In this document: one piece after another, positions 12,248 to 18,652 of the stretch
How the letters are laid out: each line of letters starts with the position of its first letter
Numbering within the stretch: the stretch's first letter is position 1
IMG/VR virus record: IMGVR_UViG_2909979649_000007
Coordinates: 1-64,000 of that record
Direction: 5' to 3' (one strand)
DNA from: a virus
Lineage: Duplodnaviria; Caudoviricetes
DNA: 64,000 nt
Position numbers and translations under genes: made by a program
The notes under the pieces: generated by a model
The model's database searches: none
The model's input: only the letters and a program-made list of their open reading frames with translations
What the model was told of the DNA's origin: nothing

Positions 12248-13006
12248 GAAGTTATGCGAGGGTAATGAAAATAGATTTAGCTTTAGGCGCTTGAAAAACT
12301 TTGGCTTGAATATCAGAAGTTGGAGCAATTAATTCGACGCGAGTAACGCCCCCCATATGCAACGCATCATAAATACCCGATAAGGCGACGGTTTTACCCA
12401 GCTTATAACACTGATCAACATACGTATTTAAGGCAGCCGTCGCCGTATCCATAATGGTTTTGGAAGACGGCCCTTGTTGTACATGCAGTTTCGCATCAAT
12501 GGCATAGTCGATAATTTCCGCCGCTTGCACAGTAATATGATCAGTTAATGGCCTGACATCTTCATCATTTAACGCGGTTAACAACGCCTGTTTTATTTCC
12601 TCATCCGGTGCCATATCCGCTTCATCAGCCAATGGTCGCCGTAAAAAAGTAATAACCACCTCGCCCGGCTGATCAGAATACACCGAGACATCGGCAATTT
12701 GATCATGGGCATTATGGGCATGGGCTAAATATGCCCCAACCGGGCCAGCGGTTGAATACCCTTCAGGGCCTAATTGAATGCGACGACGAAAGTCTTCATC
12801 AGATTCCATCACAGCAGGTGTGGGTGGCACTTGATTATCATCAGCCGGTTTAATCACTTTACGTTTAACGCCGTAATTCGCACCCAAATGATCTAAATCC
12901 GAACCTTGCGCATAAGCTAACATGACCGCTTTTGCTCGTTCATTAAATTGCCCTCTCTGTCAGGCTAGTTGTCGTTTTTATTCACTGAGATGACGACAGA
13001 TAACTG

Positions 13007-13489
13007 ATGGCTAAATATACCAAACAGCAAAAAGAAAATATCTTAAAGCTATTGCTCCCACCCGAAAATAAATCAGTCCCAGTGGTACACAAAATGACTG
13101 GCATTCCTCAGTCAACCCTGCATACTTGGAAAACCAAAGTGCGAAGTCAATCTGCCAACATGCCGAAAGAAACATCAAATCAAAGCTGGTCATCAGAACA
13201 AAGGCTTAATGTGATCATTGAGACAGCGGCCTTATCTCAAGCAGAGCTAGCAGCCTATTGCCGAAAAAAAGGGTTGTATGTTGAGCAAGTTGAGCAGTGG
13301 AAACAGGCATTTATTCAGCCAGAGCAACCCTCCCAGGAGCTAAAGAAAAGCTTGCAAGTGGAAAAGCAGCGGTGCCAACAACTTGAAAAAGAGCTAAAGC
13401 GAAAAGAAAAAGCACTGGCCGAAGCCGCGGCCCTGTTAGTCCTTCAAAAAAAAGCTCAGTCAATCTGGGGACCGGACGAGGAAGCCTAA
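13007..13489 (+). CDS. IS3 transposase OrfA
   Basis: N-terminal HTH, leucine-zipper end LAEAAALLVLQKK. Confidence 0.9.
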   Translation: MAKYTKQQKENILKLLLPPENKSVPVVHKMTGIPQSTLHTWKTKVRSQSANMPKETSNQSWSSEQRLNVIIETAALSQAELAAYCRKKGLYVEQVEQWKQAFIQPEQPSQELKKSLQVEKQRCQQLEKELKRKEKALAEAAALLVLQKKAQSIWGPDEEA

Positions 13490-14532
13490 CGTCGTATGCG
13501 GATAGGCAACAAACAGTTCAGTTAATTGGGGAAGCCACAACTGCAGGGGCTCGGCAATTTAAGGCCTGTGAAGTATTAGGGTTAACCCCGCGCACTTATC
13601 AACGGTGGCAGCAAGGCGGTGAGCTACAACCGGATGGCCGCACCACTGCACAGCGTCCATTGCCGCCTAATAAGCTGCCTCCCAATGTTCATCAACAGAT
13701 GCGAGAAACGCTGAATTCACCGGAGTTTGCTGACCTCCCACCTTCTCAGATTGTGCCTAAATTAGCAGATCAAGGTGAGTATATTGCCAGTGAAGCCAGC
13801 TTTTATCGGCTCATGCGGGCAGAAGGGTTATCAACCCATCGAGGGAAGACCCAATCTCGTCAACCCAAACCGAAAACCACCCACACGGCGACAGGCCCTA
13901 ATCAACTTTGGTGCTGGGATATCACTTGGTTGCCAGGTCCCGTCACCGGCATCTTTTTTTACCTGTATTTGATCCTTGATGTTTTCAGCCGCAAGGTGGT
14001 TGGCTGGGAGGTGCACGATTGTGAGCGTAGTAGCCTAGCGGCAGACTTAATACAGAAAGCCTTCTGGCGGGAAAATCTCCATAAAATTCACCAGCAGCCC
14101 CTGATATTACATTCAGATAATGGGAGTCCAATGAAGGGAAGCGCTTTACAAGTCAAACTCGCTGAACTTGGTATTGAGCCTTCTTATAGTCGACCGCGAG
14201 TTAGCAATGACAATGCTTATGCAGAGTCCATATTTAAGACCACTAAATACCGACCAGATTTCCCTCACCAAGGGTTTACCTCATTAGAAAGCGCTCAACG
14301 GTGGGTTGATCAATTTGTTCATTGGTATAACCATGAGCATCAGCATAGTGGATTAAAGTTTGTAACACCGGTACAACGCCATACAGGTGAAGACCTAGTT
14401 ATTTTAAGCCGGCGGAAACAGGTTTATGAGCAAGCTAAAGCAGCTTCCCCTAACCGATGGAGTGGGAATATACGAAACTGGGAGTTGGCAGATGAAGTCC
14501 ACTTAAACCCTGAGAGAAATCAAACTCGTTAA
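13446..14532 (+). CDS. IS3 transposase OrfB (DDE), fused to OrfA by a -1 frameshift
   Basis: A8G slippery run at 13446-13454; -1 frame open to 14532; WCWDITW, LHSDNGS and DNAYAES catalytic motifs. Confidence 0.9.
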
Positions 14533-14944
14533 TATCCATTTAAAACTGTGCAACTCCCCTCTTTAATTGAAGCTGCTGAGGATGGATGCTTTGCATCGCA
14601 AGGCGTCCACCAGAAGGAGCAATGGGTGTTGTCTGTGTTATTAATAATTAGCCCTAAATTGATTATTAATATTTATTATGCCTCACGTTTTGAGATAGCT
14701 CGATGAAGATAAGAAGATAACACGACAACTACGTTGACAAACACCGATTGCTGGCGAATTAGCATTTCGCGATACGCGCAGACTTCTAAAATCTTCATGG
14801 CCGGGTCTGATTCGACTAAGGCTGTAAAGCTACTATCGCGCTTTTGTAAATCATCTAGCATGGATGCTAGGACCATTTCATAATCAATCGGCTCAATCAC
14901 ATCTGGCGCGGGTAACTGTGATAAATCAATGGCAGTAAATTCGC

Positions 14945-15280
14945 TCATACAATGATGCCATCCAATGTAATGGGTTTGCCTTCGGGTAAATAAATCCCTT
15001 CTAACGCAATCAATAACTCGCCAGGTTCACCACGAAACGCTTGCACCTTGGTGACCTTTATACGAGGTTCCCAACGGATTAAGGCTTCAGCGGTGGCCGC
15101 ATAGATTTCCACTAGCCACTGACCATTCATGGGGCGATCCACTAATTCAGGTAAACGACTGCCATAGTCACGCCGCATCAGTCGGGTACCAATGCGGGTG
15201 GTTAGAATGTCAGTGATGGATTGGCGGAGGTGATAGAGGTTAGAAAGGGGTTTACCGGTTTGTCGGTGAGTGCCTTTCAT
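14945..15280 (-). CDS. Baseplate wedge protein W (gp25-like)
   Basis: QSITDILTTRIGTRLMRRDYGS...WEPRI. Confidence 0.92.
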   Translation of the reverse strand: MKGTHRQTGKPLSNLYHLRQSITDILTTRIGTRLMRRDYGSRLPELVDRPMNGQWLVEIYAATAEALIRWEPRIKVTKVQAFRGEPGELLIALEGIYLPEGKPITLDGIIV

Positions 15281-15347: not shown

Positions 15348-15767
15348 TTATACCACTGATCCTAAAGAAAATATAGGTATATACATAGAAATCATCGAAA
15401 ATCCATTTATAACTAGTGTTAACACGAATATTAAAACTGAAAAAGCAAGCATTGGGTTTTTACGGCGTTTTTCCTTACCTTTGTAAATTAATTTTTTTCT
15501 GTAAATAAGAGTGCAAATAGGTAAAAGAACCAGAAACACTAAGAAATAAAACCGATAAGTACTTAAAACAAACTCGGTAATAGCTGGTAAATCAGCCCCA
15601 AAACCAGCAAATACTTTTTGAAATTGTGGAATAACAAAAATTACTCCAATATGGATAAATAAAGATAAAACAATCAGCCCTAGTGATAGCAGTACAGCCC
15701 ACGTACTCATTGACTCTATTTTACAGTCTTCAAGGCTTGATTCTGGTACAGCATAAGGCTCTTTCAC
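15348..15767 (-). CDS. Mini PilC/GspF-like inner-membrane protein (moron)
   Basis: VIPQFQKVFAGFGADLPAITEFV and terminal SMYIPIFSLGSVV resemble PilC TM segments; probable GTG start at 15767 after GGAG (track start 15842). Confidence 0.7.
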   Translation of the reverse strand: MKEPYAVPESSLEDCKIESMSTWAVLLSLGLIVLSLFIHIGVIFVIPQFQKVFAGFGADLPAITEFVLSTYRFYFLVFLVLLPICTLIYRKKLIYKGKEKRRKNPMLAFSVLIFVLTLVINGFSMISMYIPIFSLGSVV

Positions 15768-15844
15768 TAATTTCTCCACAACGTGCTTTAATCCTAGATT
15801 TTGTAGCGCGTGTATATTAATTGAACAGACGCTGTTTGGCAATG

Positions 15845-16450
15845 CTATTGTTTAGCTCCTGTCGGCACCGCTGTACCATGACCTGGCACATCATGCCCAT
15901 GGCCGTTATAAATATCCCGATCACCTTGCATACTTCGCGTGTGGTCGGTTATTTCTTGAGTGGCTTTAATATTCCCCTCAACCAATAAATCACCGACACA
16001 ATGAATACCTTCGGGACTAATTAATTTGGTATTACCTGCACCGGTTAACTCAATGATTAATTCATCACTGCCTCGGTGATAGCTAAACCGGGCATGATTT
16101 TTAAACTGCCATACCCACTCATCTGGATCATGGCTAGGGGTTGGGTACTTGTTTTGATAGACAGCCGGTAACACAAAACCATTGGCTAATTCGCCACTGG
16201 GGGATAACACAATGACTTGCTCACCCACTTCCGGTGCCCACCAGCTTTGGTCATGGCCAGCTCTGGTGGTTAACCAAGGTAACCAGCCAGAGGTTAATTG
16301 ATCGATTTGCACTCTGACGCGCGTGCGTTGGTGATCCACTTGGTGAATGGTGCCAGGGCGAATTAAGTTAACTAAAAGCCGGTAAAGCTCATTAACGCGA
16401 AACAACTCGGTAGTCATCTTTATGAGGGATTCCAATTTCAGGGGCGTCAC
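15845..16450 (-). CDS. Baseplate spike protein V
   Basis: WLPWLTTRAG...WWAPEVGEQVIVLSP; probable start 16417. Confidence 0.92.
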   Translation of the reverse strand: MTPLKLESLIKMTTELFRVNELYRLLVNLIRPGTIHQVDHQRTRVRVQIDQLTSGWLPWLTTRAGHDQSWWAPEVGEQVIVLSPSGELANGFVLPAVYQNKYPTPSHDPDEWVWQFKNHARFSYHRGSDELIIELTGAGNTKLISPEGIHCVGDLLVEGNIKATQEITDHTRSMQGDRDIYNGHGHDVPGHGTAVPTGAKQ

Positions 16451-18270: not shown

Positions 18271-18414
18271 AGTGATTGCCTAATATTAACCGCGCAACAA
18301 TAAATAAAGGGCCTTTCTGCACAAAATTTGCAAATTTAATGCACACCAATTGCTTCAATAACCAGTAGTATATTGAGATGGATAATTTAAACGTCTGGTG
18401 AGGCTCTTTGTACT

Positions 18415-18606
18415 GTGAGTAAAAACATCAAAATGAAGTTGTTAATTATTATTGCCGTTTTGGGCGGTATGGCTATTCTTTTTTGGCTGGCCGCGACAGG
18501 TATTATTTATGCGCTCCATGATTTTGATCCCAACGCATTACAAATTGATGCCTGTTTAGATGCGGGTGGCGCATGGGATTATGAGGGAAGTACATGCAAA
18601 TACTAA
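18415..18606 (+). CDS. Small membrane-anchored protein (moron, antisense)
   Basis: N-terminal TM; C-terminal DACLDAGGAWDY...C motif. Confidence 0.6.
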   Translation: MSKNIKMKLLIIIAVLGGMAILFWLAATGIIYALHDFDPNALQIDACLDAGGAWDYEGSTCKY

Positions 18607-18625
18607 CCATATGCACTGGGCGATT

Positions 18626-18648
18626 AAAAAAGGCGGGAATCCCCGCCT
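18626..18648 (-). terminator. Intrinsic terminator after the major capsid gene
   Basis: AGGCGGGGATTCCCGCC followed by T6 on the minus strand. Confidence 0.8.
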
Positions 18649-18652
18649 CTAA

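What the first reader, a model, noticed from the sequence alone, without database searches (positions are those of the whole stretch)
15348..15767. 'Mini-PilC': a phage protein made only of PilC-like membrane segments
Seen: an AT-rich gene between baseplate V and W. It carries VIPQFQKVFAGFGADLPAITEFV and ends in SMYIPIFSLGSVV. Known, from recalled sequences: type IV pilus platform PilC has VVPQFQSVFEGFGAELPAFTQ in its first TM region and ends in AMYLPIFQLGxVV, with large cytoplasmic GspF domains in between. Those domains are missing here. Inference: a dominant-negative PilC mimic that blocks pilus or T2SS assembly and so excludes pilus-dependent phages. Known phage pilus inhibitors target PilB or PilZ rather than mimicking PilC.
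Basis: partly seen in the sequence, partly recalled or inferred. Interest (0 to 1): 0.75.

Follow-up and report, generated by a model that had tools for sequence, protein, structure and literature searches.

The report
Prophage gene mimicking PilC's membrane core
A prophage in an Endozoicomonas-like genome carries a 139-residue membrane protein made only of the three membrane helices and outer-face motifs of the type IV pilus platform protein PilC; it belongs to a rare, undescribed family and probably acts as a decoy that shuts pili down, though this is untested.

Summary
Window 15348-15767 (-) is a real, AT-rich (32% GC) gene between baseplate genes V and W of a P2-like prophage. Its product aligns in order with the host's own PilC. 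Residues 16-93 match PilC 170-247 (TM1, periplasmic loop, TM2). Residues 111-139 match PilC 382-409 (TM3 to the C-terminus). Both cytoplasmic GspF domains are absent.

It is not a one-off. An exhaustive HMMER search found about 130 cluster representatives of 95-180 aa that match over their whole length. This family has no Pfam model and I found no description in the papers searched.

The family keeps every PilC-invariant residue on the periplasmic side (P-x-F...F..FG..LP..T and Y-x-P-x-F..G). It lacks the Tyr-Pro and Glu-Pro pairs that form the ion-channel constriction of the platform trimer.

Family members are rare: 5 genomes among roughly 1,200 sampled. None was found in phage or plasmid collections. 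They have no conserved neighbour, and two lie beside defence genes. Here the gene fills a cargo slot that holds different membrane or secreted proteins in three sibling prophages.

Best reading (about 45%): a platform decoy or poison subunit that blocks type IV pilus assembly, giving exclusion of pilus-dependent phages. No binding or phenotype was tested.

The parts
15348..15767 (-). mini-PilC coding sequence (139 aa plus stop), GTG start
   Evidence: ORF and translation. The N-terminus M-x-x-P-Y-x-x-P-E-S aligns with the family's conserved start, favouring the GTG at 15767 over the TTG at 15842. The same 139-aa product is on record here and in a sister genome. dN/dS is 0.38 against the ortholog.
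15705..15767 (-). residues 1-21: short cytoplasmic N-terminal tail with the family motif (M-x-N/E-P-Y-x-x-P-E/x-S)
   Evidence: Family alignment A1. Non-helical in the AF2 model.
15576..15704 (-). residues 22-64: TM1 running into the periplasm-side PilC motif V-I-P-Q-F-Q-K-V-F-A-G-F-G-A-D-L-P-A-I-T
   Evidence: Helix 22-56 in the AF2 model. Aligns to host PilC 170-210. P47, F49, F53, F56, G57, L60, P61 and T64 are 77-97% conserved in the family and invariant in PilC. The PilC Tyr-Pro pair (Y172-P173) is replaced by aliphatic residues.
15504..15575 (-). residues 65-88: TM2
   Evidence: Helix 62-94. Aligns to PilC TM2.
15453..15503 (-). residues 89-105: short, strongly basic cytoplasmic loop (YRKKLIYKGKEKRRKNP), in the place of the roughly 130-aa second GspF domain of PilC
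   Evidence: Read directly from the sequence. Eight K/R against one E fits the positive-inside rule. This part of the AF2 model has lower confidence.
15351..15452 (-). residues 106-139: TM3 ending in the PilC C-terminal motif S-M-Y-I-P-I-F-S-L-G-S-V-V
   Evidence: Helix 105-137. Aligns to the last 29 residues of host PilC, and both end at the same point. Y129 is invariant and P131 is 99% conserved in the family. There is no Glu-Pro pair at the position of PilC E375-P376.
15768..15844 (-). upstream spacer after gpV: GGAG (15774-15777) 6 nt before the GTG; one sigma-70-like site (TTGCCA, 17 nt, TAATAT; 15842-15814)
   Evidence: Sequence. In the promoter scan, 1 site was found against 2.8 expected from shuffles, so the promoter is a lead only.
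15845..16450 (-). baseplate spike/hub gene V (context)
   Evidence: PF04717 Phage_base_V, E 3.5e-19.
14945..15280 (-). baseplate wedge gene W/gp25 (context)
   Evidence: PF04965 GPW_gp25, E 1.4e-15.
13007..14532 (+). IS3-family insertion sequence (orfA and orfB) splitting baseplate gene J (context: the prophage is probably defective here)
   Evidence: HTH_Tnp_1 and rve. J is intact (298 aa, Baseplate_J) in the syntenic prophage of the sister genome. J pieces lie at 14676-14948 and 12252-12923.

Best explanation
Identity (well supported): a 139-aa inner-membrane protein with three helices and PilC's topology (N-terminus in, C-terminus out). It is homologous to the membrane core of the type IVa pilus platform protein PilC, with both cytoplasmic ATPase-docking GspF domains gone. 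It belongs to a rare, unannotated family of about 110-155-aa 'mini-PilC' proteins. Here it is an AT-rich cargo gene (moron) in a variable slot between baseplate genes V and W of a P2-like prophage.

Mechanism (inferred): the family keeps exactly the PilC-invariant residues at the periplasmic ends of TM1 and TM3 and in the TM1-TM2 loop. In the PulF trimer model, TM1 and TM3 of neighbouring subunits pack there. The family has lost the Tyr-Pro and Glu-Pro pairs that form the ion-conducting constriction, and everything that contacts PilB/PilT. It should therefore either slot into PilC trimers or sit in PilC's place at the centre of the pilus machine, possibly holding pilins or alignment proteins. 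The resulting platform could neither be driven by the ATPase nor conduct ions. The expected result is fewer or no type IV pili in the lysogen, and so exclusion of pilus-dependent phages, with side effects on twitching, adhesion and DNA uptake.
For: Homology and architecture: and a confident 3-helix AF2 model (pLDDT 87.7).

Family: an exhaustive HMMER search gave 439 hits, and about 130 of the best 151 are 95-180 aa and match end to end. A word-index search with the family profile gave 791 proteins of 61-272 aa.

Selective retention: family positions 47, 49, 53, 56, 57, 60, 61, 64, 129, 131, 133 and 136 coincide with PilC-invariant or near-invariant P193, F195, F199, F202, G203, L206, P207, T210, Y394, P396, F398 and G401. 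PilC-invariant Y172-P173 and E375-P376 are aliphatic in the family. The PulF study shows that TMS1 and TMS3 mediate oligomerisation, that cysteines at their periplasmic ends cross-link, and that the Tyr-Pro and Glu-Pro pairs form the constriction (PMC10790770).

Target choice: the protein is closer to the host's T4aP PilC (52 + 30 bits) than to its two GspF paralogs (33 and 29 bits). The host has pilB next to pilC, pilT/pilU-like genes and pilM.

Cargo status: GC 32% against 45-49% in the flanks. Three sibling prophages in the same genome carry unrelated AT-rich genes at the same V-W junction.

Selection: dN/dS 0.38, so the gene is constrained but evolves several-fold faster than neighbouring structural genes (0.04-0.10).

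Context elsewhere: no conserved partner, which fits a protein that acts on a ubiquitous host machine. Two of three other genome contexts lie near defence genes, Lamassu LmuB and candidate system PDC-S02.

Precedent: the small inner-membrane protein PfsE of phage Pf4 binds PilC, blocks pili and excludes pilus-dependent phages (PMC8764522).
Against: No interaction, piliation or phage-resistance data exist, and no complex could be modelled. The family is not enriched in phages: none was found in phage, plasmid or IMG/VR collections. Exclusion of phages is therefore at best one use of the family. The defence-gene neighbourhood rests on two loci. No promoter or terminator stands out, so expression in the lysogen is unknown. 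The prophage here carries an IS in gene J, so this copy may be drifting. Loss of the mid-membrane Tyr-Pro and Glu-Pro interface residues could also weaken co-assembly with PilC. The receptor of any phage infecting this host is unknown.
Confidence: 0.45

Rival explanations
1. A self-contained small membrane protein, perhaps a homotrimer, whose job has nothing to do with pili. Examples would be a membrane-perturbing or ion-leak effector, a stress protein, or another kind of phage exclusion at the inner membrane such as blocking DNA entry. On this reading the PilC motifs are kept only because they hold the helix bundle together.
For: No conserved gene partner and very varied contexts. The same prophage slot holds other membrane proteins, including a K+ channel. 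Some copies lie near defence genes. The weak top fold matches are trimeric 3-TM proteins such as DgkA (not significant).
Against: The polar channel residues of PilC are lost, and the family's helices are almost wholly aliphatic, which argues against an ion path. The residues kept are those invariant in PilC across distant bacteria. That is more than bundle packing would need.
Confidence: 0.2
2. A positive or neutral accessory of the pilus machine. It might be a pilin-holding chaperone or a spare platform core that tunes pilus number or pilin choice, possibly to the phage's benefit, rather than blocking assembly.
For: It keeps the periplasmic face of PilC, where pilins are presumed to dock. Family members occur as ordinary chromosomal genes. 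Viruses that supply pilus parts are known in archaea (PMC12426801).
Against: It is never linked to pil genes in the contexts seen. It is rare and patchy, about 5 of roughly 1,200 genomes, unlike a machine component. It cannot couple to the ATPase.
Confidence: 0.15
3. The same decoy mechanism, but aimed at the type II secretion platform GspF, or at both systems.
For: The host has two GspF paralogs. The motifs are shared across the superfamily: TIGR02120 GspF hit at E 1.6e-3 and BLASTP E 4e-6 and 1e-4.
Against: The protein is clearly closer to T4aP PilC in both segments. The C-terminal MY-x-PIF-x-LGSVV tail matches only PilC, not the host GspFs, which end LPIL-N-x-N-Q-L.
Confidence: 0.08
4. A decaying leftover of a pilC gene with no function.
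For: dN/dS is raised relative to neighbours. A copy with stop codons exists in a related genome (G003). The prophage here is hit by an IS.
Against: There are hundreds of end-to-end homologs with the same clean three-helix design, their own N-terminal motif and invariant residues. In a tree of the shared core, all 27 PilCs split from all 88 minis with support 1.0, so this gene is not a recent fragment of the host pilC. dN/dS is well below 1.
Confidence: 0.05

Closest known systems
PilC / GspF (PulF, HofC) platform proteins of type IV filament machines (Pfam T2SSF, PF00482)
   Same: Homologous TM1, periplasmic loop, TM2 and TM3. Same order, same predicted topology, same invariant periplasm-side residues, identical C-terminal end.
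   Different: Lacks the N-domain and both cytoplasmic GspF domains that dock PilB/PilT. Lacks the Tyr-Pro and Glu-Pro channel pairs. About one third the size. Not linked to pil or gsp genes. Has its own N-terminal P-Y-x-x-P tail.
PfsE (PA0721) of Pseudomonas filamentous phage Pf4
   Same: A small prophage-encoded inner-membrane protein acting at PilC. It blocks pilus extension and excludes pilus-dependent phages (PMC8764522). This is the closest functional precedent.
   Different: PfsE is a 30-aa single helix with a YxWGW motif and no likeness to PilC. It binds PilC rather than imitating it. The function of mini-PilC is only inferred.
Tip (D3112 gp05), Aqs1 (DMS3) and PlzR: phage or host inhibitors of type IV pili
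   Same: Accessory genes that switch off pili and so protect against pilus-specific phages (PMC8764522; PMC11436027; PMC11461919).
   Different: They are soluble proteins aimed at the ATPase PilB or at PilZ. They have no sequence relation: PHROGs gave no family for mini-PilC.
TadB/TadC and ComGB: naturally reduced platform proteins (from general knowledge and the PulF paper's discussion)
   Same: They show that the platform can be trimmed or split in evolution.
   Different: Those proteins keep at least one cytoplasmic GspF domain and work as true platforms inside their operons. ComGB is noted to keep the Tyr-Pro pair and a Gln-Pro pair. Mini-PilC keeps neither domain nor pairs.

Membership tests
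GspF/PilC platform protein family (PF00482 T2SSF; NCBIfam PilC/HofC/GspF equivalogs) | Two cytoplasmic GspF (T2SSF) helical domains that engage the ATPase | tested here: not met
   Pfam gave 0 families at E<=1 for the 139- and 164-aa forms. NCBIfam scores were 18-32 bits against cut-offs of 400-700. Only 17 residues lie between TM2 and TM3.
GspF/PilC platform protein family (PF00482 T2SSF; NCBIfam PilC/HofC/GspF equivalogs) | Three transmembrane segments, N-in/C-out, with a short TM1-TM2 periplasmic loop | tested here: met
   AF2 helices at 22-56, 62-94 and 105-137, pLDDT 87.7. A basic loop between helices 2 and 3. Collinear alignment to PilC TM1-TM2 and TM3.
GspF/PilC platform protein family (PF00482 T2SSF; NCBIfam PilC/HofC/GspF equivalogs) | Invariant periplasm-side motifs (P-x-F...F..FG..LP..T; Y-L-P-I-F..G) | tested here: met
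GspF/PilC platform protein family (PF00482 T2SSF; NCBIfam PilC/HofC/GspF equivalogs) | Tyr-Pro in TMS1 and Glu-Pro (or Gln-Pro) in TMS3, forming the channel constriction (PMC10790770) | tested here: not met
   Host PilC Y172-P173 and E375-P376 align to aliphatic positions in this protein and across the 88-member alignment.
GspF/PilC platform protein family (PF00482 T2SSF; NCBIfam PilC/HofC/GspF equivalogs) | Encoded with pilB/pilD or in a gsp operon | tested here: not met
   It lies between phage baseplate genes here. Other members sit in unrelated contexts.
Mini-PilC family (defined here; alignment A1) | 110-155 aa, end-to-end homology, three helices, short basic loop, PilC periplasmic motifs, N-terminal P-Y-x-x-P tail | tested here: met
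   140 bits against the family profile. Alignment. Best non-self relatives are 38-40% identical over the full length, E 1e-17.
Prophage-encoded type IV pilus inhibitors / superinfection-exclusion proteins (PfsE, Tip, Aqs1) | Accessory (non-structural) gene carried by a prophage | tested here: met
   AT-rich insert in a variable V-W slot.
Prophage-encoded type IV pilus inhibitors / superinfection-exclusion proteins (PfsE, Tip, Aqs1) | Binds a pilus-machine component and suppresses piliation, twitching and pilus-phage infection | not testable with these tools
No RNA run was listed. Bench assays are needed.
Prophage-encoded type IV pilus inhibitors / superinfection-exclusion proteins (PfsE, Tip, Aqs1) | Sequence relation to a known inhibitor family | tested here: not met
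   PHROGs gave 0 families. PADLOC gave only a marginal SLATT-type hit, E 9e-4.

The most novel reading that the evidence does not exclude
Mini-PilCs are a natural family of platform-protein decoys. They are membrane-core copies of PilC that co-assemble with or displace the real platform and switch off type IV pili. Bacteria, defence islands and at least one prophage lineage would use them to deny pilus-dependent phages their receptor. This would be the first case of receptor shut-down by structural mimicry of the platform itself. It would also be a ready-made minimal core for testing the trimeric-channel model of PilC/GspF.
Probability: 0.35. Interest if true: 0.8.

Novelty: new variant of a known kind. 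Interest (0 to 1): 0.66.

Why it matters
[quoted passage not shown] Nature has here dissected it: hundreds of small proteins keep only its three helices and its periplasmic-face invariants, and discard the ATPase-docking domains and the channel constriction.

If these proteins poison or replace the platform, three things follow. They are a new route to pilus shut-down and phage exclusion, by mimicry rather than by an unrelated binder. They explain a recurrent orphan gene in environmental genomes. They also give experimenters a small, expressible probe for which PilC surfaces mediate oligomerisation and pilin handling.

In Endozoicomonas, which are symbionts of marine animals, prophage control of pili could also affect host colonisation.

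Tried and rejected
- The look-up of sequencing runs: no RNA holder was listed.
- The genome-contig scan with the family alignment was swamped by full-length PilC: 80 of 80 loci, with 3 short frames that are probably PilC pieces.
- The alignment A1 was too diverse for the search for related loci.
- IMG/VR: the motif scan found nothing confirmed. Two spaced-motif scans gave one chance hit inside an unrelated gene, and none.
- GenBank phages: only PilC-like pieces in two 'Acinetobacter phage MD-2021a' records annotated gspF, E 0.09. Nothing was found with the G005 member. Plasmids gave nothing.
- Foldseek against PDB gave no significant match, only generic helix bundles.
- The ESM Atlas returned only unnamed clusters of 124-166 aa.
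- The earlier-findings look-up returned only an ordinary pilBCD block in another genome.
- Host-tracking of variable motif positions was examined. The three Endozoicomonadaceae minis share -EVF- (-KVF- in this copy) and LGSVV with their hosts' PilC. With only five mini/PilC pairs, and mixed results in G149 and G104, this is not evidence.
- Rejected readings: a recent fragment of the host pilC (tree split) and a structural baseplate part (variable slot; absent from sibling prophages).

Full report
**The gene.** The minus strand carries an open frame from 15842 (TTG) or 15767 (GTG) down to the stop at 15348-15350. The GTG is preceded by GGAG at a 6-nt spacing. The 139-aa product begins M-K-E-P-Y-A-V-P-E-S, which matches the conserved start of its relatives. 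The same 139-aa product is on record for this genome and for Endozoicomonas sp. SM1973. GC falls to 27-36% over the gene against 44-50% on either side. The flanking genes are baseplate V (PF04717) and W/gp25 (PF04965).

The surrounding region is a P2-like myovirus late region:
- terminase, portal and major head genes
- tail completion gene
- baseplate genes V, W, J and I
- tail fibre, sheath, tube and tape measure genes

An IS3-family element (HTH_Tnp_1 and rve) splits gene J at 13007-14532. J is intact in the syntenic prophage of the sister genome.

**Likeness to PilC.** Pfam finds no domain. NCBIfam PilC, HofC and GspF models match only their positions about 172-243, far below the family cut-offs. 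The genome holds four GspF-family proteins. BLASTP places the gene closest to the type IVa pilus PilC, whose gene sits next to pilB:
- residues 16-93 align to PilC 170-247 (37% identity, E 1e-12)
- residues 111-139 align to PilC 382-409, both proteins ending ...LGSVV (E 7e-5)

The two GspF paralogs score 33 and 29 bits and match only the first segment. A profile of the gene's family against a profile of 27 PilCs gives 99.1% probability, E 8e-19. The only solved-structure relative by sequence is Myxococcus PilC, again in two stretches. AlphaFold2 with the family alignment gives a confident three-helix protein (pLDDT 87.7; helices 22-56, 62-94, 105-137). The 17-residue link between helices 2 and 3 carries eight Lys/Arg, so it should face the cytoplasm. 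That reproduces PilC's N-in/C-out topology.

**A family, not a one-off.** A word-index search found only the SM1973 ortholog (79% identity). An exhaustive HMMER search of 1.84 billion representatives found 439 hits. About 130 of the best 151 are 95-180 aa and align over their whole length at 26-43% identity. A profile of 88 of them retrieves 791 proteins of 61-272 aa. Nearly all are from metagenomes. They are unnamed, or named 'type II secretory pathway component PulF' by JGI, and carry no Pfam domain apart from a few PilC fragments. The alignment shows:
- a short N-terminal tail with P-Y-x-x-P
- TM1 running into P-x-F-x-x-L-F-x-G-F-G-A-D-L-P-x-L-T
- TM2, then a short basic loop
- TM3 ending A-M-Y-L-P-I-F-x-x-G-x-V-V

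In a tree of the shared core, all 27 PilCs separate from all 88 minis with support 1.0. This gene is therefore not a recent deletion product of the host's pilC.

**What is kept and what is lost.** In the 27 PilCs, the invariant residues of the membrane part fall in two groups. The first group lies on the cytoplasmic side: K165, K168, A169, Y172, P173 and A180 in TM1, and E375, P376 and G387 in TM3. The second lies on the periplasmic side: V191, P193, F195, F199, F202, G203, A204, L206, P207 and T210, and Y394, L395, P396 and F398, with G401 near-invariant.

Of the periplasmic group, twelve residues (P193, F195, F199, F202, G203, L206, P207, T210, Y394, P396, F398, G401) have direct counterparts in the minis, 77-100% conserved. 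None of the first group is kept; Y172-P173 and E375-P376 are replaced by Ile, Val or Leu.

The PulF study (PMC10790770) supplies the meaning of these positions:
- TMS1 and TMS3 of three subunits form a six-helix bundle.
- The Tyr-Pro and Glu-Pro pairs form its ion-binding constriction.
- Blocking that constriction abolishes pilus assembly.
- Cysteines at the periplasmic ends of TMS1 and TMS3 cross-link readily.
- The cytoplasmic domains form the ring that docks the ATPase hexamer.

A mini-PilC is thus the outer-leaflet half of the platform's bundle on a minimal scaffold. It has no ATPase contact and no constriction.

**Where the family lives.** The profile was run against sampled genomes, counting only scores above those of true PilCs. 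It found minis in 3 of 400 genomes of the class, in 3 of 401 of the order (all in the window's own family), and in none but the window's genome in 401 of the phylum. At most 10 candidates per genome were scored, so these are floors. Four genomes marked unpublished (G146, G313, G301, G044) are part of the sample, but only as genomes without a mini.

The contexts are:
- **G001:** the same prophage slot as here.
- **G005:** a variable region with a GmrSD/HNH nuclease, DUF2310, a transposase and a Lamassu LmuB gene about 5 kb away.
- **G149:** beside an ankyrin protein and a DUF1016/PDC-S02 gene.
- **G104:** between PEPCK and an EthD protein.
- **G003:** a copy with stop codons beside ordinary genes.
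- **Five short metagenome contigs:** two with IS transposases adjacent.

No member was found in GenBank phages, PLSDB plasmids or IMG/VR. The family therefore has no fixed partner and is not phage-specific. This prophage lineage has picked one up.

**Cargo status here.** The genome holds three further prophages whose W proteins are 95-97% identical to this one. In each, V and W are separated by a different AT-rich insert read in the same direction:

| Prophage | Insert length | Cargo |
|---|---|---|
| this one | 567 nt | mini-PilC |
| sibling 2 | 417 nt | 85-aa membrane protein |
| sibling 3 | 520 nt | 123-aa protein with a signal-like N-terminus |
| sibling 4 | 811 nt | 234-aa six-helix potassium channel (Ion_trans, E 1.6e-37; TVGYGD filter) |

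The V-W junction is therefore a cargo slot.

Against the G001 ortholog the gene has dN/dS 0.38 (dS 0.31). Its structural neighbours have 0.04-0.10. It is constrained, but looser or faster-evolving than they are, as accessory genes often are. One promoter-like site lies upstream, which is no more than chance gives, and no terminator was found.

**Mechanism.** Shown:
- homology to PilC
- the three-helix architecture
- selective conservation of the periplasm-side residues
- cargo status in the prophage

Inferred: the protein inserts like PilC. Through the retained TM1/TM3 ends it either mixes into PilC trimers or occupies the platform's place. It may hold pilins or alignment proteins there. Either way the machine could not be driven or energised, so pili would be lost and pilus-dependent phages excluded. 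PfsE of Pf4, a 30-aa membrane protein that binds PilC with that outcome, is a working precedent for PilC as a target (PMC8764522). The papers searched describe no mimic of PilC itself.

I put this reading at about 45%. The rivals are a pilus-independent membrane function (20%), a non-inhibitory accessory role at the pilus machine (15%), action on type II secretion (8%) and a functionless remnant (5%).

**Verdict.** It needs two corrections: the family is mostly non-phage, and PilC-targeting phage proteins are already known. The finding's main value is the recognition of an undescribed family of PilC membrane-core proteins with a clear and cheap experimental test.

Noticed in passing
G000:C1:1390197-1390901 (L165:1198-1899, +); a sibling prophage outside the window: The V-W cargo slot of a sibling prophage carries a 234-aa voltage-gated-type potassium channel (Pfam Ion_trans, E 1.6e-37; TVGYGD selectivity filter). 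A K+ channel as tail-module cargo of a temperate phage is unusual.
   Followed up: partly
G000:C1 near 94796-95128, 1290939-1291271, 1390938-1391270, and window 14945-15280: There are four closely related P2-like prophages in one genome (W proteins 95-100% identical). Each has a different AT-rich (31-37% GC) gene between V and W: mini-PilC, an 85-aa membrane protein, a 123-aa secreted-looking protein, and the K+ channel. This is a cargo hot spot.
   Followed up: partly
window 13007-14532 (+), with J pieces at 14676-14948 and 12252-12923 (-): An IS3-family element (HTH_Tnp_1 and rve) interrupts baseplate gene J, so this prophage copy is probably unable to build tails. J is intact in the sister genome's prophage.
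   Followed up: partly
window 18271-18652, ORF 18415-18606 (+): A roughly 380-bp insert between the head-tail connector genes and the major head gene is absent from the syntenic prophage of G001, where the gap is 33 nt. It encodes a 63-aa protein with one hydrophobic helix and four Cys, on the opposite strand, with no Pfam family. It is possibly another moron.
   Followed up: partly
alignment A1, N-termini (window 15705-15767): Most mini-PilCs start with M-x-N-P-Y-x-x-P-x-S/A before the first helix. This tail is absent from PilC. Its role (targeting, turnover or a binding site) is unknown.
   Followed up: no
L024:15643-17436 (G005) and L136:1998-3014 (G149): Two non-prophage family members lie within about 1.5-5 kb of defence genes: Lamassu LmuB (E 3e-235) and candidate system PDC-S02 (E 4e-22). 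This hints at defence-island residence, but with only two cases.
   Followed up: partly
L025 about 1425-1775 (G003:C41): A degraded mini-PilC copy with in-frame stop codons lies between a choloylglycine-hydrolase-family gene and a solute-binding-protein gene. It shows that the family is lost as well as gained within this bacterial family.
   Followed up: no
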